Assembly (NCBI GenBank): GCA_016214285.1
Contig: JACROV010000079.1
Location: forward strand, 6,855-70,854
Direction: 5' to 3'
Length of the DNA stretch: 64,000 bases
From: Candidatus Omnitrophota bacterium
GTDB lineage: Bacteria; Omnitrophota; Gorgyraeia; Zapsychrales; Zapsychraceae
Below the pieces are notes generated by a model. It saw only the letters and a program-made list of their open reading frames with translations. It was not told the origin of the DNA and made no database searches. Shown here one piece after another: positions 17,973 to 62,870 of the stretch (positions are counted from its first letter, which is position 1; each line of letters starts with the position of its first letter). The position numbers and the translations under genes are program-made.

Positions 17973-17997
17973 CCCGGCAACACCGGGTGTTGCCGGG
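17973..17997. repeat. GGCAACACCGGGTGTTGCC palindromic element, family E copy 1 (intergenic)
   Basis: Perfect 25-bp palindrome cccggcaacaccgggtgttgccggg. Other copies at 24383-24403 (inside alr) and 61947-61975 (inside lnt). Confidence 0.8.
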
Positions 17998-18010
17998 GCC
18001 GGGCGGACAG

Positions 18011-18122
18011 CGAATTCAGTCGACGTCGACTGAATTTGAATTCGTCAGATATCTGACGAATTCGCCAGCTAGCTGGCGAATTGCCCGCGGCAGGGGTGCT
18101 GGAAAGCGGCAGAGGGGAAAGG
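18011..18122. repeat. Array D3: two GAATT-flanked palindromic hairpins plus a gaattgcccgcggcagggg... G-rich tract
   Basis: cgaattcagtcgacgtcgactgaatt and gaattcgtcagatatctgacgaattc, then gccagctagctggcgaattgcccgcggcaggggtgctggaaagcggcagaggggaaagg. Confidence 0.75.
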
Positions 18123-18169
18123 TACACGTTTACGGGGAATATCGGTACAGAAATACATTGGATATCCAG

Positions 18170-18637
18170 ATGAAGAAGCCAGTAATTCAGTTAGAGCGTA
18201 CAGGTTGTGGTATCGCGAGCGTGGCTGCGATCGTCGGTTTCTCTTACCTGAAAATGAAGTCGATCGCGAATTCTTTGGGTGTCTTTGCGCATGACGAGAC
18301 TTTGTGGTCGAACCCGTCTCACGTGCGGAAGTTGTTGAGGCGTTTCGGCGTGAGAGCTGGCTCACGTGAAATACCTTTCCGCTCTTGGGAGACGCTTCCT
18401 GATCTTGCACTGTTGTCGATCAAGTGGCATCTTGAGAAAGGCCGTCCTTATTGGCATTGGGTAGTGTTCGTTCGAGAAAATGGGCGATCCTATGTGCTGG
18501 ATTCAAAAAAGCGTCTGCGTAGCAACGTCAGAACGGACTTTGGGCGTATGAAGCCAAAATGGTATATCCCGGTCATTGATGTCCAGCAATGCGTTCAATG
18601 CGATCGCGCCGGCAATAATAGACAGATAGAATCATGA
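18170..18637 (+). CDS. Peptidase C39-like (papain-fold) domain protein
   Basis: Catalytic-Cys context QLERTGCGIASVAAI and His context WHWVVFV. The real start MKKPV is about codon 70 of listed ORF 17963..18637, whose N-terminus is repeat DNA. The coordinate may be off by one. Confidence 0.55.
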   Translation: MKKPVIQLERTGCGIASVAAIVGFSYLKMKSIANSLGVFAHDETLWSNPSHVRKLLRRFGVRAGSREIPFRSWETLPDLALLSIKWHLEKGRPYWHWVVFVRENGRSYVLDSKKRLRSNVRTDFGRMKPKWYIPVIDVQQCVQCDRAGNNRQIES

Positions 18638-20154
18638 AGACTCCATTTTACGTCACAACTCCTATCTATTACGTCAACGATAATCCACACATCGGGCACG
18701 CGTACACGACGATCCTTGCTGATGTTTTGGCGCGTTACCACCGTAACGAGGGCGATGAAGTCTTTTTCCTGACGGGTCTGGATGAGCACGGGCAAAAGGT
18801 CCAGCAGGCGGCGCAGAAGCGTGGAGTTCCCGAGCAGCAGCATTGCGACGAGCTCGCGCCGCGGTTTTCCGACCTTTGGAAGAAGCTCGAGATCCAGAAC
18901 GACGATTTTATCCGCACCACCGAGCCGCGGCATATCAAGGCCGTCCAGGCCGCGCTGCAGAAAGTGTATGACGCGGGGGACGTTTATACGGATGAATACG
19001 AAGGCTGGTACTCGGTCGCTGAGGAACGGTTCATCACCGATACCGAGAAAGATTCCGGACATTTCCGCGACGTTAAAAAACTAAAGGAGCGCAATTATTT
19101 CTTCAAGATGAGCAAATATCAGCAAAAGCTCATCGACTATATCAACGCCCATCCGGAATTTATCCAGCCCGAACATCGCAAGAATGAGGTCTTGGGATTT
19201 TTACGCCAGCCGCTGGGGGACCTGTGCATCTCGCGTCCCAAATCGCGCATGGGCTGGGGCATCGAGATTCCTTTTGATAAAGAGTATGTCACCTATGTCT
19301 GGTTCGACGCGCTGATCAATTACATCACGGCATCGGGATATTTGGTAGATGAGAAAGAATTCAAGAAGTGGTGGCCGGCGTCGGTCCATTTGATCGGCAA
19401 AGACATTTTGACGACCCACGCGGTGTACTGGCCGACGATGCTTTTTTCATTGGGGCTGCCGCTGCCGAAAACCATCTTTGCCCACGGCTGGTGGCTCATC
19501 GGCGAAACGAAAATGAGCAAGTCGTTGGGGAATGTCGTTGATCCTTTAAGTTTGGTTGACCAATACGGCGTTGACCCGGTGCGCTATTACCTGATGCGCG
19601 AGATGGTCCTGGGGCAGGACGCCAATTTCACCATGGAATCGTTCATCAAACGCTACAACAGCGACCTGGCGAATGATTTCGGGAATCTTTTGAATCGTGT
19701 CAGTGGTCTTATTGGAAAATATTTTGACGGCTGCGTTCCCAAAGAAGGTCAGGCGTGGGCGCCGGATAAGGAGATCAGGAAGGTTGCCGACGGGCTGGCC
19801 AAGAATATCGAAGAGTTGATCAATGGCATGCGCGTCCACGAGGCCCTTGAACAGGTTTTGGTGTTGATCCGCAACACCAACGTGTATATGGAACACCAGG
19901 CGCCTTGGAAAGAGGCGAAAGAGAATTTGGAACGGGCGGGAACGATCCTTTATACAGCAACGGAGGCGCTGCGCGTCAGCGCGATTCTGCTTCTTCCGGT
20001 TATGCCCGCGAAGGCGAATACGGTTTTAGAGATTTTAGGAGCGGTGGGGACAGAGCCGTGCTGGGGGCAGCTCAAGGCCGGGGCAAAATTACAAAGCCAC
20101 GACGCGCTTTTCCCGCGATTAGACGCTGAAGGCAAGGTTATAACTAAGAGTTGA
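18634..20154 (+). CDS. metG: Methionine--tRNA ligase (short form)
   Basis: HIGH motif (PHIGHAYT), KMSKS, connective-peptide zinc-knuckle region and an anticodon-binding domain. No C-terminal EMAP domain. Confidence 0.95.
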   Translation: [506 protein letters not shown]

Positions 20155-20232
20155 GGTCACAAAGTCACCCGGTCACAACGTCACCAGTATTTTTTACCTG
20201 TGACTTTGTGTCTTTGTGACATGGTGACCACT
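20155..20232. promoter_or_regulatory. Long imperfect palindrome built from GTCAC half-sites downstream of metG
   Basis: ggtcacaaagtcacccggtcacaacgtcacc ... cctgtgactttgtgtctttgtgacatggtgacc. It may act as a bidirectional terminator and/or an operator upstream of mtnA. Confidence 0.45.
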
Positions 20233-20246
20233 TCGAAAGTATTATT

Positions 20247-21329
20247 ATGTCTATTCAAACGATCAGTTGGGTCAACGGTCACGTCAAGCTCATCGACCAG
20301 ACCAAACTTCCCGGGAAATTGGTTTACATCCATTGCCGCGACGTCAAGACACTGTGGCAGGCGATCCGGCGTTTGAGTGTCCGCGGCGCGCCGGCCCTTG
20401 GCGTGGCGGCGGCGTTCGGAGTTTTACTGGGGATCAAATCTTTTTCCGGTTCCGGTTCCCGTTCCAGGAACCGGAACGACCGGAAACATTTTAGCAAGCA
20501 TGTGGATCAGATAAGCGATTATATCGCCGCCTCGCGCCCGACGGCGGTGAATCTTTTTAATGCTCTGGCGAGGATGAAACAGGTTGTCCATCGTCACCCT
20601 GACGCAAGCGTTGGCGGACTGAGAAATCTTTTGAAAAAAGAGGCGCTGGCCATTTATGAGGAAGACCGCAAGCTTTGCCGGCGGATGGGAACCTTTGGCG
20701 CGCGCCTTATCCCGTCGGGTGCCAACCTTTTGACCATCTGCAATGCCGGCGCGCTGGCGGCCGTCGATTACGGCACCGCGTTAGGTGTCATGTACAGCGC
20801 CAAGGCGAAGGGCAAGAAATTCCAGGTTTACGCGTGCGAAACGCGGCCGCTTTTGCAGGGCGCGCGGCTGACGGTGTGGGAACTCTTGCGTTCGGGCATT
20901 GATACGACGTTGATTTGCGACAACATGGCCGCAACGTTGATGAAGCAGGGCAAGGTTGACGGGGTTTTTACCGGCGCTGACCGCATCGCCGCTAACGGAG
21001 ACACGGCAAACAAAATCGGGACGTACAACCTGGCCGTTTTGGCCAAACATCACCGGATCCCTTTTTACGTGGTCGCTCCCCGGTCGAGTTTTGATCTCTC
21101 CATCAAAAACGGCCGGCAGATCCCGATCGAACAAAGAAGCAAGGAAGAGGTCCTGGGTTTTGGCGGCTGCCCGACGGCGCCGCGGCAGGTGAAGGTGTAC
21201 AATCCCGCCTTTGATGTGACGGACAACAGGTTGATTGCGGCGATTGTGACGGAGAAAGGAATCATCCGCCAGCCGTTTGTGAAAAATATAAAGAGGGTCT
21301 TTGAACGGAGAAACCATTCCGGCGAATAA
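20247..21329 (+). CDS. mtnA: S-methyl-5-thioribose-1-phosphate isomerase
   Basis: eIF-2B/MtnA family motifs (ETRPLLQGARLTVWEL, DRIAANGDTANKIGTY). Contains a low-complexity insert SGSGSRSRNRNDRK encoded by a palindrome at 20443-20486. Confidence 0.85.
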   Translation: MSIQTISWVNGHVKLIDQTKLPGKLVYIHCRDVKTLWQAIRRLSVRGAPALGVAAAFGVLLGIKSFSGSGSRSRNRNDRKHFSKHVDQISDYIAASRPTAVNLFNALARMKQVVHRHPDASVGGLRNLLKKEALAIYEEDRKLCRRMGTFGARLIPSGANLLTICNAGALAAVDYGTALGVMYSAKAKGKKFQVYACETRPLLQGARLTVWELLRSGIDTTLICDNMAATLMKQGKVDGVFTGADRIAANGDTANKIGTYNLAVLAKHHRIPFYVVAPRSSFDLSIKNGRQIPIEQRSKEEVLGFGGCPTAPRQVKVYNPAFDVTDNRLIAAIVTEKGIIRQPFVKNIKRVFERRNHSGE

Positions 21330-21557
21330 GCCTTTCCGCCCAGATCCGCCATCGTTGTCATCCCGATCTCTCGTTCACTAAAACGTTCACTCAAGATTGG
21401 GATGACCGGTAACCTTTTGTTCGGGACAGTTTAGGCGTGTGGTATCAGGCGGGTGACCCGGAAGCGGGTTCCCTGCCGCCCGCAGCGATAAGCGAGGACG
21501 GGAGGGTGCCGCAGGGGCAGGACCCGCCGGTGGATTGAGAATAGTTTTATTAAAATT

Positions 21558-22451: not shown

Positions 22452-22921
22452 TGAAAAGCGTCGCTATATTGTCGAAGAGTACGGATCAGACCATCAAGGT
22501 GGGCGAGCGGCTGGCCAAGCATTTGAAAAAAGGGGACATCGTGTGCCTTCAGGGCGATCTGGGCGCGGGCAAGACGACCTTCATTAAAGGCGTTGCTAAA
22601 GGCTTAAAGATCGCTCCGTCCAAGGTCAACAGCCCGACGTTCGTTCTGATGAACGCGTATCATGGGCGCCTGCCGCTTTACCATTTTGATCTTTACCGTC
22701 TCGAAGATACGGGAGAGATCGGGGCCATCGGATATGAGGAATTTTTGTATGGCGACGGAGTGTCGGTCATCGAATGGGCTGAACGTCTGGGGCCGCTGAC
22801 CCCGAAGGAATATTTGCGCGTTGAATTAAAACATAAAAGCGAAAATGAACGTTCGATCAAACTTGCGGCGGTTGGAGAAAAGTATTGTCGAATTACGAGA
22901 GGACTGGTTAATGGTAAATAG
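22451..22921 (+). CDS. tsaE: tRNA threonylcarbamoyladenosine biosynthesis ATPase TsaE
   Basis: YjeE family. P-loop GDLGAGKTTFIKG. Confidence 0.9.
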   Translation: MKSVAILSKSTDQTIKVGERLAKHLKKGDIVCLQGDLGAGKTTFIKGVAKGLKIAPSKVNSPTFVLMNAYHGRLPLYHFDLYRLEDTGEIGAIGYEEFLYGDGVSVIEWAERLGPLTPKEYLRVELKHKSENERSIKLAAVGEKYCRITRGLVNGK

Positions 22922-22969
22922 TGAATGGTAAATGGGGCCATTTACTATCCACCATTAACTATTAACCGT
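22906..22969. repeat. TGGTAAA(T)-repeat inverted-repeat hairpin
   Basis: ggttaatggtaaatagtgaatggtaaatggggccatttactatccaccattaactattaacc. A similar architecture lies at 54123-54225. Confidence 0.55.
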
Positions 22970-22972
22970 TTT

Positions 22973-24294: not shown

Positions 24295-25446
24295 ATGAAT
24301 AAACATTTAACTTGGGCACAGATTGATTTAAGCGCCATCCGGCATAATTTTCGGGTGCTACAACGGCTGGCGGGAATACCCACGGCAACACCCGGTGTTG
24401 CCGCGGGTTCGGGGAAAGTGAAAATCCTCGCCGTCATCAAGGCGGACGCGTACGGCCACGGGATGCTGGTCGCGAAGGTTCTCGTTAAAGAGAAGGTGGA
24501 TTTTATCGGGCTATCGAATCTGACCGAAGGGATCGCTTTACGCGAGGCAGGCATCAAAACGCCGGTCCTTTTGTTTGAAACGACCCTCGCTGAACAAGCC
24601 CAAAATATTATTGACTACGAGCTGACCCCGACGATATGCACGCATGAATTGGCCGCGGCGTTGAACCGCTACGCGCAGAAACGTAAGCGCGTGGTGGATA
24701 TCCACGTCAAGGTCGATACCGGCATGGGGCGCCTGGGCGTCTGGCATGAAGAGGCTTTGGATTTTATAAAGAAATTAAGCCGTCTGCGGAATTTGCGGGT
24801 CCAGGGGATCTGCACCCATTTCCCGTCGGCGGATACGGACCAGGCGTTCACGCGCCGTCAGATCAGAGATCTGGAGAATTTAGTTTCGCGGCTTAAAGCC
24901 GGAGGGCTTCATGCTCTTTACGTCCACGCGGCCAACAGCATGGGGCTGGTTGGATATCCGAACAAGATTTTGAATCTCGCGCGGCCGGGATTGATGCTCT
25001 ACGGCCTGTATCCGCGTCCGGGATTGGAAGAGAAAGTCAATTTGCGCCCGGCGATGAGTATCCATTCGAAGATCATCTTTTTAAAGCGCATTGAAAAGGG
25101 AAGAAGCATCAGTTACGGCCGGACGTTTATCGCCTCGCGGCCTATGACGGTCGCGACCTTGCCGATCGGTTACAGCGATGGATATCTGCGCGGACTCTCC
25201 GGCAAGGCGGACGTTCTTGTCGGCGGCCAGCGTTGTCCGGTTCTGGGCCGTGTCACCATGGACCAGATCGTTGTTGATGTTTCCAAGATTAAAAATCCTC
25301 GGCTGGGGATGCCGGTTGTCATTTTAGGAAAGCAAGGGAAAGAGGAAGTCTGCGCTTATGAGCTCGCCCAACTCGTCCGTACGATCAATTACGAGATCGT
25401 CTGCAGCCTCGGGAGCCGCTTGCCGAGGTTGTATAAAAAAGCTTGA
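24295..25446 (+). CDS. alr: Alanine racemase
   Basis: PLP-lysine motif VIKADAYGHG and a C-terminal beta domain. Carries an in-frame 21-bp palindrome insertion (TATPGVA) at 24383-24403. Confidence 0.9.
   Translation: MNKHLTWAQIDLSAIRHNFRVLQRLAGIPTATPGVAAGSGKVKILAVIKADAYGHGMLVAKVLVKEKVDFIGLSNLTEGIALREAGIKTPVLLFETTLAEQAQNIIDYELTPTICTHELAAALNRYAQKRKRVVDIHVKVDTGMGRLGVWHEEALDFIKKLSRLRNLRVQGICTHFPSADTDQAFTRRQIRDLENLVSRLKAGGLHALYVHAANSMGLVGYPNKILNLARPGLMLYGLYPRPGLEEKVNLRPAMSIHSKIIFLKRIEKGRSISYGRTFIASRPMTVATLPIGYSDGYLRGLSGKADVLVGGQRCPVLGRVTMDQIVVDVSKIKNPRLGMPVVILGKQGKEEVCAYELAQLVRTINYEIVCSLGSRLPRLYKKA
24383..24403. repeat. Family E palindrome copy 2, in-frame inside alr
   Basis: cggcaacacccggtgttgccg encodes ..TATPGVA.. 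. The alr N-terminal linker is about 8 aa longer than in E. coli Alr at this position. Confidence 0.75.
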
Positions 25447-25480: not shown

Positions 25481-27307
<1,827 letters not shown>

Positions 27308-52430: not shown

Positions 52431-52897
52431 AAATATTTATTATGGAAGATAAATCTGGGAAAATCATCATCACGCGCAGGATGTGGCAGCTTTTGGCCGC
52501 CGCGGGGGTTGTCCTGTTGACCATTTTGGTCACGTATTATCCCTTGAACCCGCGTTACGGGCTGTGGGTGGGCGGGCAAATCTTCTTTATAGTTTTTGCC
52601 CTGGCCTATTTGCGAGAAGAAAGGAGGGCGACGCGATCGCCGGATTCCAACGCGGTCATCAACTGGAATCTGATCGAAGCGGGTTTGCTTTTAGCGAGCA
52701 TCTTAGGATATTCTGTTCTGGCTTATGTCTGTCACTTTAGCAGGGAAGTTTTTTATGCCTATTTTTATACCGGCGCGTTGGGATTGCTGGGCGGAGTGGC
52801 GCTGGGCGAATGGTTGTGGCAGAATACCAGGTTAAAGGAACTTGATGAGACTTGCCGCCAACGGTATTGGGCAAATTATAAGGATTCAATTCTTTGA
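52427..52897 (+). CDS. Small integral membrane protein (4 predicted TM helices, 156 aa)
   Basis: Four hydrophobic segments. The start overlaps the stop of the upstream gene (ATGA). Confidence 0.55.
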   Translation: MKIFIMEDKSGKIIITRRMWQLLAAAGVVLLTILVTYYPLNPRYGLWVGGQIFFIVFALAYLREERRATRSPDSNAVINWNLIEAGLLLASILGYSVLAYVCHFSREVFYAYFYTGALGLLGGVALGEWLWQNTRLKELDETCRQRYWANYKDSIL

Positions 52898-52970: not shown

Positions 52971-52990
52971 CCGGTTATCCGGATAACCGG
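52971..52990. promoter_or_regulatory. Perfect 20-bp palindrome ccggttatccggataaccgg upstream of prfB
   Basis: About 50 nt upstream of the prfB ATG. Related to the GGTTATCCGG repeats at 39940-40045 and to the family C 3' ends. Confidence 0.5.
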
Positions 52991-53041
52991 TTACCCGGAT
53001 CTCCGGAGCGGGTGGGAAAACAGTCACTATGTCCGACGATA

Positions 53042-54237: not shown

Positions 54238-57200
54238 ATGTTTGATTTCTTAATCCGCAAACAAGTTATCCCCAGCGCCCAGCGGTTTATCGACCGTCTG
54301 GAGCCGAAGGTCGCGGTCCACGTGCCCATCGACCTGCCTTTGCCCTCCCTTAAAGTTCTCAAAACATTTTCCGCCACAGTTGCCAAAATAAACGCGCTGG
54401 AGAATCAGATGGCCGCGCTCACTTCCGAACAGTTGCGCGCCAAAACGGATGAATTCCGCGGCCGGTATCAGCAGATGATCACAAAGGAAAAAGAGGATCT
54501 GCGGCGGCTTGAAGATCTTTACTGGAAAGCTGTCACACCTGAAGAGAAAAATGATCTGCAGAATCAGGTCGACGCCGCCCGCAAGGGATTCCGTACCGCC
54601 AGAAAGAAAGTCCTGGATGGTATTTTGCCGGAAGCCTTCGCCGTGGCGCGCGAGACCGGCAAGCGCGTCTTGAACATGCGGCATTTTGACGTTCAGCTCA
54701 TCGGGGGGATGGTCCTCAACGAAGGCAATATCGCGGAAATGGCGACCGGTGAAGGGAAAACTCTGGTGGCAACGCTCCCCGCGTATTTGAACGCCTTGAC
54801 CGGCGACGGCGTCCACGTGGTGACGGTCAATGATTATCTGGCCGGCCGCGACCGCGCCTGGATGGGGCCGATCTACGAATTTTTGGGACTGACCGTCGGG
54901 GTCATTGAGCATGATATGGACCCCGCCAGCCGCCAGCAGGCCTACGGCTGTGATATCACTTACGGTACCAACAACGAATTCGGGTTCGATTATTTGCGCG
55001 ACAACATGGTCATCAGCCGCCAGGCCATGGTCCAGCGCGGGCATTATTTCGCTATCGTTGACGAGGTCGACAGCATCCTCATCGATGAGGCGCGCACGCC
55101 GCTTATCATCTCCGGCCCCGCGGAGGAATCCACGGACAAATATTACCGCGCCCATGAGATCAGCCGCCAGCTCCAGGGCAAACGCATCGCGGATGAAAGC
55201 CAGGAAAAGCTCAACGCGAAATACCGCGGCGAGGAAGAGGACCTGACCAAAGGGGTCGATTATGTGGCCGACGAGAAAACAAAAGCGGTCTCTCTTTCCG
55301 AAGCCGGTGAGGAAAAAGTGGCCAAACTTTTCGGCATCGCGAATATCCATGATATGGAAACCATCGAATACCGCCACCATATCCTGCAAGCGTTAAAGGC
55401 CAAAGAATTCTTTGCCAAGGACGTCGAATACGTCGTGCGCGACGGTGAGGTCCTCATCGTCGATGAATTTACCGGACGATTGATGCCCGGACGCCGCTGG
55501 TCCGACGGGCTGCACCAGGCCGTTGAGGCCAAGGAAGGCATCAAAATCGAGCGCGAGAACCAGACGCTGGCGACGATCACCTTCCAGAATTATTTTCGCA
55601 TGTATGAGAAACTCTCCGGCATGACCGGTACCGCGTACACCGAGGCCAACGAGTTCAAGCAGATCTATAGCCTCGATGTGGTGGCCATGCCCGCCAACCG
55701 TAAATTGCAGCGCGTCAATCACGCCGATTGCATCTATAAAACGATCAAGGAAAAGTTCAATGCCGTTGTCACCGAGATCGAAGAATTCCATAGGCGCGGC
55801 CAGCCGGTTCTGGTGGGTACCATCTCCATCGAGAAATCCGAAATGCTTTCGAAAATGCTCAAGCAAAAGGGGATCGCCCATCAGGTCTTGAACGCCAAAT
55901 ATCATGAGCGTGAAGCGCACATCATCGCGCAGGCCGGGCGGTACCAGGCCGTGACGATTGCCACCAATATGGCCGGACGCGGAACGGACATCATGCTCGG
56001 CGGCAATGCCGAACATCTGGCGAAAAGTCTGGCGGAAGAAAAGCTTGAAGATAAAGATGATCACGCGCAAAGGGACGAATTGACGCGCAAATTCATCGAG
56101 CAATTCCGTCAGCAGGTCAAGGACGAACATGAAAAGGTGGTGGCGACAGGAGGACTGCACGTCCTGGGCACCGAACGCCATGAGTCGCGCCGCATCGACA
56201 ACCAGCTGCGCGGCCGCCAGGGCCGCCAGGGCGATCCGGGTTCCTCACGATTTTATGTTTCCCTTGAAGATGATCTGATGCGGCTTTTTGCTTCAGACAA
56301 GATCATGGGGATCATGGATAAATTGGGCATGGAGGAAGGCCAGGTGCTCGAGCATCCGTGGCTGACCATGGCCATCGAGAACGCGCAAAAAAGGGTGGAG
56401 GCGCACAACTTCGAGATCCGCAAGCACCTGCTGGAATTCGACGATGTCATGAACCGTCAGCGCGAAGCGATCTACTCGATCCGCCGTTACGTCCTGGAAA
56501 GCAATGACGTCAAGCACCTGATGCTCGAATCCATCGAACAGATGGCCGCCGGTGTCGTCGCCGGCTATGTGGTCGCCGGAGAAGATGCCGGCTTCGACGC
56601 GGAAGGGTTGGATATTTATCTTAAAACGAAATTCCATTATGACCTGGGCGAACAAAAGAGCGCTCTGGCCGGGATGCCCCAGGAACAGATCCGGGGGTCG
56701 ATCTCCGAGGGTTTGCTGGCGTTGTATGAAACAAAAGAGAAAGACATCGGCGCGGAACAATTGCGCCAGATGGAACGGATGCTGTTGTTGCAGACCATCG
56801 ATACCAAATGGAAGGACCATCTCTACGCGATGGACCAGTTAAAGGAAGGCATCGGACTGCGTTCTTTCGCCCAGCGCGACCCGATCATTGAATATAAGCG
56901 CGAAGGCTTCGAGATGTTCCAGACGATGTATGATTCCATCCATCAGGAAGTCACGGAGATGATCTTCAGGATCCAGAAGGTCGATCCATCGGCGCGGATG
57001 AGAAGTGTTTTTGGTTCCGTCCCTCAAAAATTAGTCCACGATGAGGTTTCCAGCCTGTCTGCCGGGCAGGTCCTGTCAAAGGCGAAGCCTTATACGGGAC
57101 AGGCAGGTCTCCCGGGACAACGGCCGCCTGTTCCCTTCTCGATGCCGACGGGTCAGAATATTCCGGGAGAAAGACCTCCGCGGCCCCCGGCCCCGGCGCC

Positions 57201-57294
57201 CATCCATAAAACCGGGCCGAAGGTCGGGCGCAACGACCCGTGCCCTTGCGGCAGCGGCAAGAAATACAAAAAATGCTGCGGGCAGTCCGTCTAA
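54238..57294 (+). CDS. secA: Preprotein translocase ATPase SecA
   Basis: DEAD-like motor domains, preprotein cross-linking domain and C-terminal zinc finger [14 protein letters not shown]. The N-terminus is about 30 aa longer than usual; an internal start (e.g. GTG near 54320) is possible. Confidence 0.9.
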
Positions 57295-57392
57295 ATTTTT
57301 CGAAGTATAAAAATTTTTCTTGACATATTTATTATTTTATGTAAATTAAATATAAAAGCTAATTTTATATCAATTCATAAATAGTACTAAAA

Positions 57393-58628
57393 ATGAATTC
57401 CCAGCAAATCAATCGTAAATTCGCCAATCCGTTCCGTCCAGGCGCAGGCCATATGCCGCCACATTTAGCTGGACGCGAAAAGGAAAAAGAAGAGTTTTTA
57501 AGGCTTATCGCACAAAGTACAATACTTGAAAATATGGTACTTACCGGATTGCGAGGTGTCGGTAAAACGGTACTACTTGATGAATTTAAACCAATGGCCA
57601 TTAACCAAGGTTGGTTTTGGGTTGGGACCGATCTTTCAGAGTCAGCCAGTATTAGTGAAGCTAATCTTGCTACACGGGTTCTGGCTGATTTGTCCGTTCT
57701 GACATCAAATATTATTATAGGCAAGAAACAGATTCCTCAGATGGGTTTTTCAAATCTTTCTACAGAGGTTGATACCAGAATGGGGTTCGATTTTTTATCC
57801 GCCCTATTTAACAGTACTCCGGGATTGATATCGGATAAATTAAAAAATGTTTTAGAAACAGTATGGAGTGTTTTAAAACAGACAAGCACAAAAGGATTAA
57901 TTTTCGCTTATGATGAGGCCCAAAATTTATCCGACCAACCCGCGAAAGATCAATATCCTCTTGGGATATTGCTGGATGTTTTTCAGTCTATACAAAAAAA
58001 GGATATCCCGTTTTTACTGGTTTTAACAGGTTTGCCAACATTATTTCCTAAGCTTGTGGAGTCCAGAACTTTTACGGAACGGATGTTTAGAGTGGTAGTC
58101 CTGAAACGTTTAAATGAAAAAGACAGCAAGGATGCTATATTAAAACCTGTCCAGAGCGCCCAATGTCCGATTAAATTGAGTGATGAATCTGTCAATTTAA
58201 TTGTGAAGCATTCGGGGGGGTATCCTTATTTTATACAGTTTATCTGCCGGGAAACATATGATGTTTTTCTCTCCAAAATTGCTTCGGGTGAGACACCCAC
58301 AGTTCCTGTTAATGAGATCACCCGAAAATTAGATACGGATTTTTTTGCTGGAAGGTGGGCGCGCGTAACTGATCGACAAAAAGAACTTCTATTCATTATT
58401 GCAAAACTTCCCAATAGCGAGGAGGAATTCTCTGTTCAGGATGTAGCTGAGAAGTCCAAAGAGATGATGGAACATCCATTTAGTCCAAGCCATGTTAACC
58501 AAATGCTTAGTTCCCTGAGCGACAATGGTTTAGTATATAAAAATCGTCATGGTAAATACTCATTAGCTGTTCCTCTTCTTAGTCAGTTTATATTACGGCA
58601 ACATGAACAGTCAGGAAGCGTAATATAG
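57393..58628 (+). CDS. AAA ATPase (PF01637/Arch_ATPase-like), AT-rich and probably horizontally acquired
   Basis: Conserved N-terminus NPFRPGAGHMPPHLAGREKE..., P-loop LTGLRGVGKTVLL, Walker B FAYDEAQ. The gene is roughly 40% GC against a ~55% genome. Confidence 0.65.
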   Translation: MNSQQINRKFANPFRPGAGHMPPHLAGREKEKEEFLRLIAQSTILENMVLTGLRGVGKTVLLDEFKPMAINQGWFWVGTDLSESASISEANLATRVLADLSVLTSNIIIGKKQIPQMGFSNLSTEVDTRMGFDFLSALFNSTPGLISDKLKNVLETVWSVLKQTSTKGLIFAYDEAQNLSDQPAKDQYPLGILLDVFQSIQKKDIPFLLVLTGLPTLFPKLVESRTFTERMFRVVVLKRLNEKDSKDAILKPVQSAQCPIKLSDESVNLIVKHSGGYPYFIQFICRETYDVFLSKIASGETPTVPVNEITRKLDTDFFAGRWARVTDRQKELLFIIAKLPNSEEEFSVQDVAEKSKEMMEHPFSPSHVNQMLSSLSDNGLVYKNRHGKYSLAVPLLSQFILRQHEQSGSVI

Positions 58629-58686
58629 TTTTTGAATGATTCCATACCCGTTGTTACGAATTTTAAAAGACAGCCGAGGTTTTTGA

Positions 58687-59013
58687 ATGGTTAGAAAATT
58701 CTCTGAAATAAAACGGATTCTGCGCGATTATAAAGCCGAACTCCGGGCGCATGGGATCCGCGTCAGGAAAATGGTCCTGTACGGTTCTTGCGCCAGAGGC
58801 AATCCCAGGTCTTATAGCGATATTGACGTGGTTGTTATTTCGCCGGATCTCGCCAAATTTTCCGCATTAAAACGTCAGGAATTCCTGGCGAAACATACCA
58901 TCCCGGTGGACGCGCCCCTTGAGGTCATCGGCTATACGCCCGCGGAACTCAATAAAGCAAAAGACAGCATATTCGGTCAAATTATCCGCGAGACGGGGAT
59001 TGTTTTCAATTAG
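58687..59013 (+). CDS. Minimal nucleotidyltransferase (MNT antitoxin-like), with no HEPN partner in the window
   Basis: LYGSCARGNPRSYSDIDVVVIS NTase motif. 108 aa. Confidence 0.7.
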   Translation: MVRKFSEIKRILRDYKAELRAHGIRVRKMVLYGSCARGNPRSYSDIDVVVISPDLAKFSALKRQEFLAKHTIPVDAPLEVIGYTPAELNKAKDSIFGQIIRETGIVFN

Positions 59014-59058
59014 TAGTACGCTCAATCCTTCAATGTGTTGCATCCTTAACCTCTGAAT

Positions 59059-61287
59059 TTGAACCTTCTTAAATACAAAGTTTTGGCTTTCCCAATGATC
59101 GACCTCTGGCTTCTGAGGGCCGTTACCGGCATCAGCGCCTTTTTGTTATTTCAGATAGAATTGATCATCGCCAAAATATTTTTGCCGTATTATGGGGGCA
59201 GTTATCTGGTGTGGGGGGCCTGTGTCGTGTTCTTCCAGGCGGCGTTGTTGGCCGGGTATCTTTTCGCCCATGGGCTTATTCAAAAATATGGCATGCGGCG
59301 GTACCGTTGGGTGCATCTTTTTTTGATCTTTTTACCGTTGTTATTTTTCCCGGGGCGGCCGCTGGCCGCGGGGCCCTCGGGATATTCTCTGCCGCTGGCC
59401 CTGGATGTTTTTTTGCGGCTGTGCGCGACGATCGGCCCGGTCTTTTTCGTCCTCTCGACGGTCAGCATCACCTCTCAAATGTGGCTTTCCTCGTCCTCGC
59501 TTTCTTCAAAGTTTAATCCTTATGCGCTGTATTCGGTATCCAACTTCGGGTCCTTCGCGGCCTTATTGAGTTATCCCTTTGTCTTCGAGGCATATTGGGA
59601 CATTTCCCAGCAACTGCAGTTCTGGTCCGTCCTTTATCTTGTGTTCGCTGGATTGAGTGTCTGGGCAGGGCAAAAAATAAGAATAAAAGAAAAGGTGGTT
59701 GCTCCAGACCAAGCTGATGGAGAGACAGGACCATCCCGGAAAGTCCAATGGTTCTTGCTGGGGTTAGCGGGGGTGATGGTGTTCCTTTCCGTTAACAACA
59801 TCATCACCAACGAGATCGTCCCTGTGCCGTTGTTATGGATCATGCCGCTGGGGTTATATTTGTTGTCCTTTGTCCTTAATTTCCGCGAAAGGGCCTGGTG
59901 CCCGGCGTGGATCGTCCGGTATATCCCGTTCTGGCTGGGCATCGCGGCGGTCATGTTTTTTCTTGTGGAAGAAAAAATATTCCCCATACCCGTCTCTTTA
60001 ATTTTGTTGTGCGGTATCCAGTTCATTTTGTGCATGTATTGCCAGAACCGGCTGATTTCGTTAAGGCCGCGCGACGACCGGCACCTGACATTCTTTTATG
60101 TCATGTTCTCTTTCGGAGGGTTTGTCGGCGGGGTATTGACTGCCTGGTTCATCCCGGTAGTCTCTTATTCGATTATCGAATATCTGATCGGGCTTGTGGT
60201 CATAGCCGCGACGCTGGTATTCGAGGAGAGAAGGTTTTCGTTGCGCTGGCGGCACATCCTGTGGACCGTCGCTTTGGTCGCCGCCGTCATAACGTGGCCG
60301 ACATGGTATCCCCGGTATAACTTTTGGTGTTTGTTGATGGTGTTGATGTTGTTCCGGCTTGTGTTCTGTTCTGCCTTTAAAGGCGCTCCCGCGGCGGTGG
60401 TTTTGAGCCTGGTCCTCTTGGGGGGAATCGCGTATTATCCGCTGGACCAGTTCAACACATCCAGGATCGTGCAGATCAAAAGAAATTACTATGGCATAAG
60501 CAAGGTCCTTGACTCCAATGGCATCCGCAGCCTGGTTCACGGCGAGACCCTGCACGGCGCCCAGTATCTCGCGCCAGACGAGAGGAATCATCCGCTCACA
60601 TATTACAGTCTCCCGATGCCGATAGGAGAGATCCTCTCTTCAGATGTTTTTTTCTTCTCGCGCATCGGTCTTGTCGGGTTAGGGACGGGGGCGTTATCCG
60701 CGTACGGGAAGCCGCACCAAACCCTGGATTTTTACGAGCTGGACCCGGACATATATATCATTGCCAACCAGTACTTCACGTATTTACGGGATTCCGCGGC
60801 CAAGATCAATTTTATTATCGGAGACGCCCGTCTCTCGCTGGAAAAAGATAAAATGGCGCGTTATGACCTGCTGATCGTGGATGCTTTCGGGGGCGACAGC
60901 ATCCCTTTTCATCTTCTGACGAAGGAAGCGATATCCCTTTACCGCGAGCGCCTTAGCAGCGCCGGGATTTTGATGTTCCATGTCAGTAATCGTTATTTGG
61001 AGCTAAGGAGCGTCCTGGCGAATGCAGGCGCTTCGCTGGACGCTCATGTCGGGTTTAAGGTCGGCAAAGACTCATCTTTGATCGACATCGTGTCCACCTG
61101 GGTCGTGATCACCTGGGATGACGCTTCGTTCGCGACCTTGCGCTCCGGGTTCGGTTGGAAAGAACTGACCCCGGGCGCCTTTGGCAAGACGCGCCTTTGG
61201 ACCGACCGTTATATCAATATCCTCCCCACGATAAAACTTCAGCAGTTTTTGGAATCCATTAAATCTTTTACGCCGTTTAGCTGGTAG
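59059..61287 (+). CDS. Fused polytopic membrane domain / spermidine-synthase-like (AdoMet MTase fold) protein
   Basis: About 450 aa of TM helices, then GLGTGAL...DLLIVDAF (spermidine synthase family). Confidence 0.7.
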   Translation: MNLLKYKVLAFPMIDLWLLRAVTGISAFLLFQIELIIAKIFLPYYGGSYLVWGACVVFFQAALLAGYLFAHGLIQKYGMRRYRWVHLFLIFLPLLFFPGRPLAAGPSGYSLPLALDVFLRLCATIGPVFFVLSTVSITSQMWLSSSSLSSKFNPYALYSVSNFGSFAALLSYPFVFEAYWDISQQLQFWSVLYLVFAGLSVWAGQKIRIKEKVVAPDQADGETGPSRKVQWFLLGLAGVMVFLSVNNIITNEIVPVPLLWIMPLGLYLLSFVLNFRERAWCPAWIVRYIPFWLGIAAVMFFLVEEKIFPIPVSLILLCGIQFILCMYCQNRLISLRPRDDRHLTFFYVMFSFGGFVGGVLTAWFIPVVSYSIIEYLIGLVVIAATLVFEERRFSLRWRHILWTVALVAAVITWPTWYPRYNFWCLLMVLMLFRLVFCSAFKGAPAAVVLSLVLLGGIAYYPLDQFNTSRIVQIKRNYYGISKVLDSNGIRSLVHGETLHGAQYLAPDERNHPLTYYSLPMPIGEILSSDVFFFSRIGLVGLGTGALSAYGKPHQTLDFYELDPDIYIIANQYFTYLRDSAAKINFIIGDARLSLEKDKMARYDLLIVDAFGGDSIPFHLLTKEAISLYRERLSSAGILMFHVSNRYLELRSVLANAGASLDAHVGFKVGKDSSLIDIVSTWVVITWDDASFATLRSGFGWKELTPGAFGKTRLWTDRYINILPTIKLQQFLESIKSFTPFSW

Positions 61288-61301
61288 GCAGGAGTGATCT
61301 G

Positions 61302-62870
61302 TTGTTCTCTGGAAAATATCCATTGGTACGAATACTTTTCTTGAACGCTTTGTCCGCGGGGCTGCTCATTTTGGCGTTCCCCCAAACGGATATCTGGCCC
61401 TTGGCCTGGATCGGGCTTGTTCCTTTGTTGCGCGGTCTGGACGGGCAAACGCCGGCGCGCGCGTTCGCTCGCGCGTATTTGTGCGGCATCCTTTTTTTTG
61501 CCGGGACGCTTTACTGGCTGATCCATGTGACGTTACCGGGAATGGTTTTGCTGGCCGCGTACCTTGCCGTCTATTTCGGCCTCTTCGGGGCTGGATATAA
61601 TTTTCTTGCCGGATCAAAAACAGCCTGGAAACCCTTCGGTATCGCCGGCCTGTGGACGCTTTTGGAATTCACCCGGGCGCATTTCTTGACCGGGTTTGGG
61701 TGGGCCAGCCTGGGGTATTCGCAATACAAAAATCTTTTGTTCATTCAGATCGCGGACTTGACGGGCGTTTACGGGGTGTCGTTTTTGGTCGTGCTGATCA
61801 ATTGTTTCTTGAAAGAAATTCTTGAACTTGTTCTTGCTCAAAAACGTTTCGGCAAAAGCGTGTTAGTTTTATCGTTGCGCGTTCCTGTCATCGTGCTGGT
61901 GCTGGTGTCGGGATACGGTATATCGCGGTTAACGCAGTTGCGTCAGACCACGGCAACACCGGGTGTTGCCGTGGTTCCCCAGGCCTCGATCGCGGTCATC
62001 CAGGCGAACATCCCGCAGTCGATGAAATGGTATGAACCCGCCTGGCCGGACATCATGGCGCGTTACAAGATCCTTACCGGGGCCGCGGCAAAAGAGAAGC
62101 CGGATCTGATCATCTGGCCGGAAACATCTTATCCCGGGATATTATGGGAAGATAAGAAATTATTTGACGAGCTGCGGGGTTTCGTCGCGCGGCTGGGTGT
62201 CCCGCTTTTGGTCGGCTCGATCGTGCGCGAGAACGGCCATTACTATAATACCGCCATTTTGTTATCAAAAGACGGGGAGATCCTTCAGCAATATAAAAAG
62301 ATCCATCTGGTGCCCTTCGGAGAATATATTCCGTTACGTCCTTTATTTCCCTTTTTAGAACATATTGTGCCCATCGCGGATTTTACGGCCGGCGGAGAGT
62401 ACACCGTTTTTGATTTTCCGCAAAAGGAGGGCGCCAAAGCCAAGGGTGGCGGGAGATCTTTTTCCGTTCTGATCTGTTTTGAGGATACGCTCGCGGGGCT
62501 CACGCGGCAATTCGTCCGGCAGGGGGCGGGACTTTTGGTCAACATGACCAACGACGCCTGGTTTAAGGATACCAAAGAGCCGTTCATGCACGCGCAGGCG
62601 TCGGTTTTCCGAAGCGTAGAGAACCGGCGGTCGCTGGTACGCGCCGCCAACACGGGGGTGAGCTGTTCTATCGACGCCTCCGGGCGTGTGGTCCAGGCCG
62701 TAGCGGATGAGCGCGGCAAGAAAACCTATGTGGCGGGATACGCGATCATGAAGGTCCGGTTTGACCGGCAAAAAACTTTTTATACGCGCTACGGAGATGT
62801 TTTTATAATGGGTTGTTGCGCGTGTCTGTTATGGGCGGCCGTCCGCAGGAGAAGGATCTTCAAACGGTAA
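61302..62870 (+). CDS. lnt: Apolipoprotein N-acyltransferase
   Basis: N-terminal TM domain and C-terminal CN-hydrolase domain (WPETS.., VLICFED). Contains an in-frame family E palindrome (TTATPGVAVV) at 61947-61975. Confidence 0.85.
   Translation: MFSGKYPLVRILFLNALSAGLLILAFPQTDIWPLAWIGLVPLLRGLDGQTPARAFARAYLCGILFFAGTLYWLIHVTLPGMVLLAAYLAVYFGLFGAGYNFLAGSKTAWKPFGIAGLWTLLEFTRAHFLTGFGWASLGYSQYKNLLFIQIADLTGVYGVSFLVVLINCFLKEILELVLAQKRFGKSVLVLSLRVPVIVLVLVSGYGISRLTQLRQTTATPGVAVVPQASIAVIQANIPQSMKWYEPAWPDIMARYKILTGAAAKEKPDLIIWPETSYPGILWEDKKLFDELRGFVARLGVPLLVGSIVRENGHYYNTAILLSKDGEILQQYKKIHLVPFGEYIPLRPLFPFLEHIVPIADFTAGGEYTVFDFPQKEGAKAKGGGRSFSVLICFEDTLAGLTRQFVRQGAGLLVNMTNDAWFKDTKEPFMHAQASVFRSVENRRSLVRAANTGVSCSIDASGRVVQAVADERGKKTYVAGYAIMKVRFDRQKTFYTRYGDVFIMGCCACLLWAAVRRRRIFKR
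61947..61975. repeat. Family E palindrome copy 3, in-frame inside lnt
   Basis: accacggcaacaccgggtgttgccgtggt is a perfect 29-bp palindrome. It encodes TATPGVA in the same frame as the alr copy. Confidence 0.75.

What the first reader, a model, noticed from the sequence alone, without database searches (positions are those of the whole stretch)
17973..61975. A 19-29 bp GGCAACACCGGGTGTTGCC palindrome occurs three times, twice inserted in-frame in essential genes (alr, lnt), both encoding TATPGVA
Perfect palindromes cccggcaacaccgggtgttgccggg (17973-17997, intergenic after the HEPN gene), cggcaacacccggtgttgccg (24383-24403, in alr) and accacggcaacaccgggtgttgccgtggt (61947-61975, in lnt) share the same core. 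In alr the element falls exactly where this protein is about 8 aa longer than E. coli Alr (RLAGIPTATPGVAAGSGKVKIL versus RELAPASKMVAV). Both coding copies are read in the same frame as T-A-T-P-G-V-A. This resembles Rickettsia palindromic elements, which insert in-frame into ORFs, but the element here is much shorter. Such coding-sequence-tolerated mini-palindromes are uncommon and would be a lineage-specific selfish element.
Basis: seen in the sequence. Interest (0 to 1): 0.8.

Follow-up and report, generated by a model that had tools for sequence, protein, structure and literature searches.

The report
Tiny hairpin repeat inserted in genes
A roughly 30-base self-complementary DNA repeat of a groundwater Omnitrophota lineage normally sits at the head of hairpin clusters behind genes. 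Copies have also been inserted in-frame into flexible loops of the alanine racemase (alr) and lipoprotein acyltransferase (lnt) genes. This is a very small relative of known palindromic repeats, not a new kind of system.

Summary
GGCAACACC-S-GGTGTTGCC occurs three times in the window (0 expected by chance). The perfect palindromes span 17972-17998, 24383-24403 and 61947-61975, and both coding copies read T-A-T-P-G-V-A.

The alr copy is a 39-bp, 13-codon insertion that about 40 close Omnitrophota orthologues lack. It lies in a disordered loop. The lnt copy lies in the linker between the last membrane helix and the nitrilase domain.

The same roughly 31-bp element (ACCCACGGCAACACC-S-GGTGTTGCCGTGGGT) occurs, decayed, at the same alr and lnt sites in diverged relatives. 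It also occurs in a third unrelated ORF in the same frame, and at several intergenic sites. There it always heads a mosaic array of other perfect hairpins.

A different 9-1-9 palindrome is inserted 9 bp away in alr of other relatives. Several further in-frame indels in housekeeping genes are hairpin-like.

Best reading: a REP/BIME- or MITE-like miniature hairpin repeat. Rare coding insertions survive in loops in one harmless frame, and short-patch recombination then shuffles the alleles.

How it moves is unknown. No transposase was found, and perfect copies are few per genome.

Verdict: a real feature and a new variant of a known kind, of moderate interest.

The parts
17972..17998 (.). Copy 1, a 27-bp perfect palindrome CCCCGGCAACACCGGGTGTTGCCGGGG. 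It starts 9 nt after the HEPN stop codon and is the first module (H0) of hairpin array C.
   Evidence: A decayed orthologous copy follows HEPN in L040 at 2663-2692. The ssDNA hairpin folds at -15.6 kcal/mol.
24376..24414 (+). A 39-bp (13-codon) insertion in alr encoding IPTATPGVAAGSG (residues 28-40). It contains the 21-bp perfect palindrome 24383-24403, or the 31-bp near-palindrome 24378-24408.
   Evidence: Absent from about 40 close orthologues. Present but decayed at the identical site in L019. There is a 12-residue gap in solved Alr 4y2w at this point. In the AlphaFold2 model residues 27-42 are coil, with pLDDT below 50 at 30-39, between helix 12-26 and strand 43-47 that leads to Lys49.
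61947..61975 (+). Copy 3, a 29-bp perfect palindrome ACCACGGCAACACCGGGTGTTGCCGTGGT in lnt, encoding TTATPGVAVV.
   Evidence: Close orthologues have QTRPAPQ here, and L020 (67% identical Lnt) has the decayed element PTGTPGVAGGS. The site is the linker between helix 185-218 and strand 227-234. A conspecific MAG, L046, carries the identical copy.
16546..16563 (.). A fourth, decayed copy (GGAACACCCGGTGCTGTC) at the head of hairpin array B. It lies inside the 3' end of the AAA_14/DUF4143 ATPase ORF and is read as GTPGAV.
   Evidence: weak nhmmer hit, E 0.81. It is identified mainly by its position: it is followed by CCGGACGGC and then a GAATTC hairpin, as in array C, L015 and L040.
17999..18125 (.). 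The rest of array C. It consists of the linker CCGGGCGGACAGC, three perfect palindromes bounded by GAATTC (18012-18036, 18038-18063, 18058-18082), and the conserved tail GCCCGCGGCAGGG followed by GGAAAGCGGCAGAGGGGAAAGG.
14267..14443 (.). Array A. It has four GAATTC-bounded hairpins (14267-14291, 14313-14337, 14359-14384, 14406-14430) separated by the linker TGAATTGCCCGGGCGACAG, and the same tail. It has no H0 module.
   Evidence: The L015 array shares hairpin AATTCCGCAGACGTCTGCGGAATT and does carry H0.
16578..16706 (.). Array B. It has three hairpins (16578-16602, 16624-16648, 16662-16693), the same linker (16603-16621) and the same tail (16694-16706).

Best explanation
The three sequences are copies of one miniature hairpin-forming repeat carried by a groundwater Omnitrophota lineage.

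Anatomy. The element has an invariant 19-bp core, GGCAACACC-S-GGTGTTGCC. An outer stem extends it to about 27-31 bp; the stem varies between copies but stays self-complementary. The consensus is ACCCACGGCAACACC-S-GGTGTTGCCGTGGGT.

Usual location. Its normal home is intergenic, just behind a gene. In the window's own clade it is there the first module of a mosaic of hairpins and conserved linkers, comparable to REP/BIME clusters.

Coding copies. Occasionally the module has been copied on its own into coding DNA. Such insertions persist only under certain conditions:
- They add whole codons.
- They land in a dispensable loop or linker.
- They fall in the one reading frame observed, ...P-T-A-T-P-G-V-A-V-G..., which gives small flexible residues.
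- Orientation is irrelevant, because the element is a palindrome and its odd central base is the third base of a proline codon.

Shown here:
- The alr and lnt copies are insertions.
- They are homologous at the DNA level to each other, to copies in a third gene, and to intergenic copies.
- They lie in loops.
- They are old and decay in relatives.
- For a sister palindrome, insert-bearing and insert-free alleles are exchanged by short-patch homologous recombination.

Inferred, not shown:
- The copying mechanism. It could be a transposase acting in trans on a DNA hairpin, as for REP/REPIN or IS200-type elements. It could be a minimal MITE made of two joined terminal repeats. It could be ectopic template switching.
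- The reason all window copies are still perfect. This could be recent conversion between copies, or hairpin-templated correction of one arm from the other.
For: Non-random repeat:
- Three exact cores in the window against 0 expected.
- The window holds 12 perfect palindromes with arms of 8 nt or more, against about 2 in shuffles.

Insertion status:
- The alr insert is absent from about 40 orthologues that are 70-86% identical.
- The lnt segment is replaced by QTRPAPQ in about 20 close orthologues.

Same DNA element at independent loci:
- alr in the window and L019, and lnt in the window and L020, share ACCCACRGSAACACCSGGYGTTGCCGNRGGTTC.
- A third ORF in L005 reads GTPTATPGVAVGG.
- Further copies are in L039, L015, L040 (one full copy and one half-copy), L043, and the JAFGQU01 loci L008, L011 (two copies) and L017.

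Lineage enrichment:
- 5 of the 18 hit loci in the genome scan are Omnitrophota. Most of the others are ordinary ATPGVA coding sequence in Lon, RND and aminotransferase-like genes; the remainder are a few unassigned coding loci and the Patescibacteria copies.

Composite context:
- The intergenic copies in the window's own clade (window arrays B and C, L015, L040, L039) head a GAATTC-hairpin array. All of these except L039 show the linker CCGGRCGG...GC.

Tolerated positions:
-.

No host requirement for the hairpin:
- Orthologous copies in L019 and L020 have lost the fold (-3.4 and -6.3 kcal/mol, no better than shuffles). Window copies fold at -13.7 to -16.3 kcal/mol.

General phenomenon in the clade:
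- A different 9-1-9 perfect palindrome, GCCCCGCCG[T/A]CGGCGGGGC, forms a 21-bp insert 9 bp away in alr, with both centre states.
- Other hairpin-like in-frame indels occur in tsaE, secA, an IF-2B-family gene, lnt of L043 and the H+-pyrophosphatase gene.

Recombination:
- L047 and L048 alr are 100% identical except for an approximately 80-bp tract around the insert. In that tract L047 matches L040 at 92-94%.

Outer-stem covariation:
- The score is 0.179 against 0.118 in shuffles, reached by 3 of 500 shuffles.
Against: - No transposase, RAYT or integrase was seen in the parts of the window that were annotated. The rest of the source genome could not be examined.
- Perfect cores are few. There are 1-3 per representative Omnitrophota genome, 18 hit loci in 596 Gbp of genomes and 19 in the metagenome collection. 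This is far below classical REP copy numbers.
- Target-site duplications are ambiguous: a possible CGGG in alr, a possible GCT for the sister palindrome, and none resolvable in lnt.
- The alr and lnt inserts are about as diverged from their orthologous copies as the genes themselves: 82% against 78%, and 76% against 69%. There is therefore no evidence of recent movement.
- The coincidence of two different palindromes at each of the alr and lnt sites could reflect a site preference that this explanation does not predict.
- The perfection of all three window copies despite their age is not explained by simple neutral decay.
Confidence: 0.6

Rival explanations
1. The palindromes are footprints or 'solo ends' of a larger mobile unit. 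They would be either the two terminal inverted repeats of an insertion sequence joined head to head (a minimal MITE), or scars left when a gene cassette carrying the hairpin array inserted and then excised.
For: - In the window's clade, every intergenic copy sits at the boundary of a variable cassette region (toxin-antitoxin-like genes between holB-PSP1 and metG) and heads a composite array.
- The palindrome consists of two 15-nt arms around a single base, as expected for two joined terminal repeats.
- Cassette content differs even between strains that are 98-99% identical.
Against: - No isolated half-site flanking a longer element was found in about 250 kb of related DNA. The only half-copy is L040 3486-3502, at the head of an array.
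- The two recent cassette indels between the window and L046 have AT-rich junctions with no hairpins.
- No parent insertion sequence was found in plasmids or viral contigs.
Confidence: 0.15
2. The palindrome is a functional cis-element kept by selection. It would be a binding site for a dimeric protein, or an RNA/DNA hairpin that terminates transcription, stabilises transcripts or attenuates expression.
For: - All three window copies are perfect although orthologous copies in relatives are decayed.
- The outer stem shows compensated changes.
- Copy 1 lies 9 nt after a stop codon, a typical position for a 3' hairpin.
- A Patescibacteria MAG carries tandem copies of the same core upstream of recA and of ftsW/rodA.
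Against: - The hairpin is lost in L019 and L020 with the genes intact, and most orthologues lack it entirely.
- No T-tract follows it and it is not called as a terminator.
- There is no Rfam match.
- Two copies lie deep inside unrelated essential genes.
- The window was picked because its copies are perfect, which is an ascertainment bias.
Confidence: 0.12
3. The palindromes arose in place at each locus by template switching during replication, which converts near-palindromes into perfect ones. No sequence moved between loci.
For: - Arm symmetry is kept while the sequence drifts. This is seen in the outer stems, in the hypervariable 24-bp palindromes, and in central bases that flip between complementary states (G/C here, T/A in the sister palindrome, TG/CA in an array hairpin).
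Against: - The same 31 bp occurs in alr, lnt, a third ORF and several intergenic sites. Uninserted orthologues have no precursor sequence at those positions.
- In-place formation can explain maintenance of the palindrome, but not its origin.
Confidence: 0.05
4. TATPGVA is an ordinary conserved peptide, and the DNA identity is due to codon usage or chance. Alternatively, the palindromes are assembly artefacts.
For: Outside Omnitrophota most exact matches are of this kind: ATPGVA in Lon-like, RND-transporter-like and aminotransferase-like genes.
Against: - The peptide is absent from nearly all close orthologues.
- DNA identity extends beyond the peptide into the flanks and into non-coding copies.
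- 0 matches are expected by chance in the window.
- The copies recur in independent assemblies from different projects (L046, L039, L015, L019, L020).
Confidence: 0.02

Closest known systems
REP sequences (palindromic units) and their mosaic clusters (BIMEs) in proteobacteria, thought to be mobilised by RAYT transposases (PMC2817692, PMC3116915, PMC3733652)
   Same: - Each is a 20-40-bp hairpin-forming repeat.
- They sit just downstream of genes.
- They are arranged in clusters of several hairpins separated by conserved linkers.
- Sequence variants keep the stem complementary.
   Different: - Copies here are perfect rather than imperfect palindromes.
- There is no GTAG or CGTC tag, except by chance in L005.
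- Copy number looks low.
- No RAYT gene was found.
- Some copies lie inside coding sequence.
- The partner hairpins in the arrays differ in sequence instead of being the same unit in alternating orientation.
Rickettsia palindromic elements (RPEs)
   Same: - They are palindromic repeats inserted in-frame into unrelated, often essential, genes.
- They add a conserved peptide at positions compatible with the protein fold (PMC10969869).
   Different: - RPEs are about 100-150 bp and add 30-50 residues. This element is about 31-39 bp and adds 11-13 residues.
- The phylum is different.
- Most copies here are intergenic and belong to hairpin arrays.
Small dispersed repeats (SDR, 21-27 nt) of Nostoc and Anabaena (Elhai et al. 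2008, Genome Research; recalled from memory and not read here; its title is cited in PMC3116915 and PMC5861425)
   Same: - They are very small hairpin-forming repeats.
- They are found in intergenic DNA and inside genes.
- Compensatory changes preserve the structure.
- The means of movement is unknown.
   Different: - They are cyanobacterial and unrelated in sequence.
- They are often nested within heptamer repeats or HIP1.
- Copy numbers are much higher.
[quoted passage not shown]
   Same: - They have inverted-repeat ends.
- They are non-coding and non-autonomous.
- They occasionally form in-frame fusions with host ORFs (PMC10969869).
   Different: - The element is below the usual size range: nothing lies between the two arms except one base.
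- The target-site duplication is not resolved.
- No parent insertion sequence is known.

Membership tests
Rickettsia palindromic elements | Length of about 100-150 bp, encoding a peptide of about 30-50 residues | tested here: not met
   The element is about 31-33 bp. The inserts are 39 bp (13 codons) in alr and about 33 bp in lnt.
Rickettsia palindromic elements | In-frame insertion into several unrelated protein-coding genes, at positions tolerated by the fold | tested here: met
   The element is in alr, lnt and an uncharacterised membrane-protein ORF (L005), all in the same frame. The alr and lnt sites are a loop and a linker.
REP / BIME | A 20-40-bp palindromic unit located extragenically, typically at the 3' ends of genes | tested here: inconclusive
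   Size is met. Intergenic copies follow stop codons (window copy 1, L040, L039). However, at least three loci are intragenic and the palindromes are perfect.
REP / BIME | A conserved GTAG or CGTC tetranucleotide at one end (PMC3733652) | tested here: not met
   The ends read GTGG, GCGG or GGGG in the window, and GTAG only in L005.
REP / BIME | High copy number (more than 100 per genome) | tested here: inconclusive
   Perfect cores number 3 in JAFGQU01, 1 in MHGR01 and 1 in JACRHP01. Including decayed copies, there are about 3 in the 71 kb of related loci that were not chosen for carrying the element. The source genome was not available.
REP / BIME | An associated RAYT (IS200-like tyrosine transposase) gene | not testable with these tools
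   None was found among the window ORFs scanned.
REP / BIME | Composite clusters of palindromic units with conserved linker motifs | tested here: met
   Arrays A, B and C in the window, and arrays in L015 and L040, share linkers and a common tail. Unlike BIMEs, the units in these arrays differ in sequence.
MITE | Terminal inverted repeats plus a target-site duplication of fixed length | tested here: inconclusive
   The arms are inverted repeats by definition. Possible duplications are 4 bp (CGGG) in alr and 3 bp (GCT) for the sister palindrome. They depend on the assumed ancestral codon, and none is resolvable in lnt.
MITE | A related full-length insertion sequence with the same ends | tested here: not met
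   No isolated half-sites bounding a longer element were found in the fetched loci. Nothing was found in viral contigs or plasmids. Complete genomes were not searched.
Integron attC site | Core sites RYYYAAC and GTTRRRY, with an IntI integrase nearby | tested here: not met
   The arms read CGGCAAC and GTTGCCG, which do not fit (read). No integrase was found among the annotated ORFs.
Intrinsic terminator | A GC-rich hairpin followed by a T-tract | tested here: not met
   None of the palindromes is called by the terminator scan, and no T-run follows any of them.

The most novel reading that the evidence does not exclude
The GGCAACACC hairpin and the 24-bp GAATTC-bounded perfect palindromes that follow it may be working parts of an undescribed hairpin-based DNA exchange system in Omnitrophota. 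The inner 14 bp of the GAATTC palindromes are hypervariable yet always self-complementary. In this reading the system marks the ends of toxin-antitoxin or defence cassettes wedged between housekeeping genes. A dedicated mechanism would keep the two arms identical while the sequence drifts. The short palindromic insertions in alr, lnt, tsaE, secA and other genes would be off-target products of the same machinery.
Probability: 0.12. Interest if true: 0.8.

Novelty: new variant of a known kind. Interest (0 to 1): 0.5.

Why it matters
- It extends in-frame palindromic insertion, best known from the 100-150-bp Rickettsia elements, to a roughly 30-bp unit in an uncultivated phylum. It shows the process acting on essential genes (alr, lnt, tsaE, secA).
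- Such inserts are a source of loop-length variation that can be mistaken for lineage-specific protein features.
- They are useful strain markers in groundwater metagenomes.
- They may point to a hairpin-processing activity that has not been identified.
- The associated arrays of perfect but hypervariable palindromes next to variable toxin-antitoxin cassettes are the more unusual observation and deserve a genome-wide study.

Tried and rejected
- Rfam gave no match for the whole window at gathering threshold. At E≤1 on 13900-18300 there were only chance-level hits.
- The viral contig scan for the 19-mer gave 0 hits.
- The metagenome scan gave 19 loci. Most are ordinary ATPGVA coding sequence or unrelated hairpins. 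One informative hit was L039, and the Patescibacteria copies (L022, L036) were recovered again.
- A blastn search of the 33-bp consensus against plasmids gave only chance matches, with E of 0.9 or higher.
- I tried to find more in-frame copies with a 40-residue query made of three joined element peptides. None of 379 candidates scored E≤10.
- Attempts to extend the source contig beyond the window failed. One end protein was not on record, and the other was found only on a 3.8-kb contig.
- The sigma-54 promoter reading was rejected by inspection: the GG-to-GC spacing is 16, not 12.
- attC, dif-like and terminator readings were rejected (see the membership tests).
- The two recent cassette indels between the window and conspecific L046 have AT-rich junctions with no hairpins. 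Hairpins therefore do not bound every cassette change.
- The claim that the window lineage actively maintains palindromy (about 1 breaking change in the window against about 10 in orthologous copies) was not pressed. The window was selected because its copies are perfect.

Full report
**1. The observation**

The 19-mer GGCAACACC[C/G]GGTGTTGCC occurs exactly three times in the window, at 17976-17994, 24384-24402 and 61952-61970. None of 100 dinucleotide-preserving shuffles had a match, even allowing two mismatches. I read all three sequences directly.

The maximal perfect palindromes are as follows:

| Copy | Coordinates | Length | Note |
|---|---|---|---|
| 1 | 17972-17998 | 27 bp | after the HEPN gene |
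| 2 | 24383-24403 | 21 bp | in alr; 31 bp (24378-24408) with one mismatch |
| 3 | 61947-61975 | 29 bp | in lnt |

ORF 24295-25446 is an alanine racemase and ORF 61302-62870 is an apolipoprotein N-acyltransferase. Both read the core as T-A-T-P-G-V-A. Copy 1 begins 9 nt after the stop codon of a HEPN gene. The mechanical ORF that reads through it has no family match. As single-stranded DNA the three copies fold into hairpins of -13.7 to -16.3 kcal/mol.

**2. Source organism and wider distribution**

Alr is 100% identical to a protein of a Candidatus Omnitrophica MAG on an 83-kb contig. A scan of one genome for each of 185,579 species found only 18 loci with the exact 19-mer.

- Most are ordinary coding sequence in which A-T-P-G-V-A is part of a native protein. 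These include Lon-like, RND-transporter-like and Microbacteriaceae aminotransferase-like genes.
- Five of the 18 loci are Omnitrophota: three in JAFGQU01, one in MHGR01 and one in JACRHP01.
- One Patescibacteria MAG has two loci with tandem copies.
- The metagenome scan added 19 loci of the same mixed nature. One of them, L039 from Hainich groundwater, carries the identical 29-bp version of the lnt copy.
- Nothing was found in viral contigs, plasmids or Rfam.

**3. The coding copies are insertions**

*alr.* An alignment of 120 Alr homologues shows that about 40 close Omnitrophota relatives read ...RKLAG-KAKIL.... The window reads ...RLAG-IPTATPGVAAGSG-KVKIL..., a 13-codon (39-bp) insertion at 24376-24414.

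- Solved Alr 4y2w has a 12-residue gap at this exact point.
- In an AlphaFold2 model (mean pLDDT 86.5) residues 27-42 are coil, with pLDDT below 50 at residues 30-39. The coil lies between helix 12-26 and strand 43-47, which leads to the catalytic Lys49.

*lnt.* About 20 close relatives read ...RRAQTRPAPQASIAV.... The window reads ...LRQTTATPGVAVVPQASIAV....

- The segment aligns to the linker between the last membrane helix and the first strand of the nitrilase domain of E. coli Lnt.
- In the model it spans the end of helix 185-218 and coil 219-226, before strand 227-234.

That test is not met, so the insertion reading stands.

**4. One DNA element at many loci**

Two relatives carry the insert at the same positions in decayed form:

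| Gene | Source | Sequence |
|---|---|---|
| alr | L019 | ATA ACC ACA GTA ACA CCG GGC GTT GCC GTG GGT TCT GGG |
| alr | window | ATA CCC ACG GCA ACA CCC GGT GTT GCC GCG GGT TCG GGG |
| lnt | L020 | CCC ACA GGA ACA CCC GGT GTT GCC GGA GGT TCC |
| lnt | window | ACC ACG GCA ACA CCG GGT GTT GCC GTG GTT CCC |

The alr and lnt elements therefore share about 31-33 bp, with consensus ACCCACGGCAACACC-S-GGTGTTGCCGTGGGT(TC). This is more than the 19-bp core.

The same unit occurs at other sites:
- In a third, uncharacterised membrane-protein ORF in L005, read as GTPTATPGVAVGG.
- At intergenic sites in L039, L015, L040 (one full copy and one half-copy), L043 and JAFGQU01.
- As a fourth, decayed copy in the window at 16546-16563.

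All five coding copies, which represent at least three independent sites, use the same frame. The other two frames would read G-N-T-G-C-C or Q-H-R-V-L-P. In the frame used, the central base is the third base of a Pro codon, and third codon positions pair with third codon positions. Orientation therefore does not change the peptide. With only three sites the frame bias is suggestive, not significant.

**5. Age and fate of the insertions**

| Comparison | Gene nucleotide identity | Insert/element identity |
|---|---|---|
| alr, window vs L019 | 78% | 82% |
| lnt, window vs L020 | 69% | 76% |

The insertions are therefore old, not recent.

- The decayed copies no longer fold: -3.4 and -6.3 kcal/mol, no better than shuffles. 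The host genes do not need the hairpin.
- Carriers are scattered in the Alr tree.
- A sister case explains how such a scatter can arise. Other relatives carry a different perfect 9-1-9 palindrome, GCCCCGCCG[T/A]CGGCGGGGC. It forms a 21-bp insert (LAPP[S/T]AG) 9 bp upstream of the first site.
- L047 has this insert and L048 does not. Their alr genes are 100% identical except for a tract of about 80 bp around the insert. In that tract L047 is 92-94% identical to the otherwise distant L040.
- Short-patch homologous recombination therefore moves insert-bearing alleles between lineages.
- The centre of that palindrome is T in L040 and A in L047. This corresponds to G and C in the present element, the two orientation states of one palindrome.

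**6. Context of the intergenic copy**

Copy 1 is the first module of a composite structure:
- the palindrome itself;
- the linker CCGGGCGGACAGC;
- three perfect palindromes bounded by GAATTC (18012-18082);
- a conserved tail, GCCCGCGGCAGGG followed by GGAAAGCGGCAGAGGGGAAAGG.

Two further arrays with the same linkers and tail lie at 14267-14443 and 16578-16706. The second is headed by the decayed fourth copy. Arrays in L015 and L040 are also headed by the GGCAACACC hairpin, and the L039 copy is followed directly by an AATTC...GAATT hairpin.

The arrays lie in a variable region between holB-PSP1 and metG. In different genomes this region holds different toxin-antitoxin-like cassettes.

Across 13 copies the inner nine pairs are essentially invariant. 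Pairs 10-12 vary with changes on both sides. The covariation score is 0.179 against 0.118 in shuffles, reached by 3 of 500 shuffles.

**7. A wider habit of this clade**

A comparison of orthologues across the fetched loci shows that many other in-frame indels are hairpin-like:
- a 45-bp insert in tsaE of L040 and L015 (CTGCCTGTCC...GGACAGGCAG, read ...GQAGLP);
- a related GGACAGGCAGG segment in the window's secA (about 57064-57114);
- a TCCGGTTCC...GGAACCGGA insert in an IF-2B-family gene (20445-20477);
- a GGCGAG-G-CTCGCC insert at the same lnt linker in L043;
- one in the H+-pyrophosphatase gene of L042.

The window holds 12 perfect palindromes with arms of 8 nt or more, against about 2 in shuffles.

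**8. Interpretation**

The best-supported reading is a miniature hairpin repeat of the REP/BIME or MITE kind. Its usual place is behind genes, and rare insertions into coding DNA survive in permissive loops in a harmless frame. This behaviour resembles the Rickettsia palindromic elements at a fifth of their size.

*Shown:* insertion status, DNA homology among loci, loop location, decay in relatives, array context, and recombinational spread of a sister insert.

*Inferred:* the means of copying, and the reason the window's copies are all still perfect. No transposase was found, target duplications are ambiguous, and the source genome could not be counted.

*Rivals:*
- A footprint or joined ends of a larger element: possible, but no parent element was seen.
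- A selected cis-element: weakened by the decay and absence in relatives.
- Formation in place by template switching: explains maintenance, not origin.
- A native peptide or an artefact: refuted.

**9. Novelty and score**

Defining features of REPs (the end tag, high copy number, RAYT association) and of RPEs (length) are not met or not testable. I therefore file the element as a new variant of a known kind, not a member of those families. Interest is moderate at 0.5.

The more unusual finding is the arrays of perfect 24-bp palindromes with constant GAATTC ends and hypervariable centres beside variable cassettes. This supports a low-probability but more novel reading, given separately in the novel case.

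Noticed in passing
window 14267-14291, 14313-14337, 14359-14384, 14406-14430, 16578-16602, 16624-16648, 16662-16693, 18012-18036, 18038-18063, 18058-18082; also L040 1466-1489, 2706-2729, 2758-2781, 3516-3539, 3560-3587; L041 2814-2837; L015 7064-7177; L039 185-208: This is a family of 24-26-bp palindromes of the form (G)AATTC-N7-N7'-GAATT(C). The ends and length are constant. The inner 14 bp differ from copy to copy, even at orthologous positions, yet most copies are perfectly self-complementary right through the centre; a few carry 1-2 mismatches. They form arrays with the conserved linker TGAATTGCCCGGGCGACAG and a common tail, next to variable toxin-antitoxin-like cassettes. Some types recur with the central dinucleotide flipped (TG/CA). 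I know of no described element with this anatomy.
   Followed up: partly
L040 10079-10097, L047 3433-3451 (alr of relatives); absent in L048, L041 and the window: A different perfect 9-1-9 palindrome, GCCCCGCCG[T/A]CGGCGGGGC, forms a 21-bp in-frame insert (LAPP[S/T]AG) 9 bp from the alr site used by the main element. Both centre states occur. L047 and L048 differ only in an approximately 80-bp recombination tract around it.
   Followed up: yes
window 57064-57114 (secA), window 20445-20477 (IF-2B-family gene); L040 7736-7780 and L015 about 1410-1460 (tsaE); L043 10655-10684 (lnt); L042 about 11895-11960 (H+-pyrophosphatase): Other in-frame indels between orthologues are hairpin-like. The tsaE and secA inserts share GGACAGGCAGG (read GQAGLP). 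They resemble the intergenic perfect palindrome CCTGCCTGCCGGCAGGCAGG (L040 6518-6537, L043 3495-3514), so a second repeat family may also enter genes.
   Followed up: partly
window 14073-14099 and 16841-16867; L015 7226-7250: An operator-like motif, TGTTACACTTGTAACA(A/G)A(A/T)TTG(C/T)TACA, is repeated. One copy overlaps a sigma-70-like promoter (16822-16849). The copies lie just upstream of a 55-residue ORF and of the MNT-HEPN pair, so cassettes appear to share a promoter/operator module.
   Followed up: no
window 15172-15190 and 16726-16744; L040 3623-3641; L008 697-715: A further recurrent hairpin, GGACAC(T)YNSGGAGTGTCC, follows the array tails. It is perfect in L040 and has a 4-5-nt loop elsewhere.
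   Followed up: no
L004 1609-1645 and L010 6379-6428 (the same loci as L022 and L036), Patescibacteria MAG OS_PC_MetaG.mb.42: Tandem copies of the same core (GGCAACACCSGGTGTTGCC followed by GCAACACCCGGTGTTGC) lie in AT-rich spacers upstream of recA and of an ftsW/rodA-like gene, in a genome with about 36% G+C from another phylum. Whether this reflects transfer of the repeat or a shared binding site is unknown.
   Followed up: partly
window 52434-52442 vs L046 448-1442; window 57287-58672 vs L046 6287-6358: The conspecific MAG GCA_016201705.1 is 98-99% identical to the window but differs by a Bro-N gene insertion. It also has 72 bp where the window has a 1.4-kb segment that includes a 411-residue ORF. 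The junctions are AT-rich and have no hairpins.
   Followed up: partly
window 22906-22967: Two 30-nt inverted-repeat arms (GGTTAATGGTAAATAGTGAATGGTAAATGG / CCATTTACTATCCACCATTAACTATTAACC, 83% complementary, 2 nt apart) lie at the tsaE/tsaD junction.
   Followed up: no
window 52971-53007; L046 1972-1991; L043 3515-3550: The perfect palindrome CCGGTTATCCGGATAACCGG, with overlapping near-repeats of GGTTAYCCGGAT, lies upstream of the prfA-like gene. It is conserved in the conspecific MAG and, in part, in a relative.
   Followed up: no
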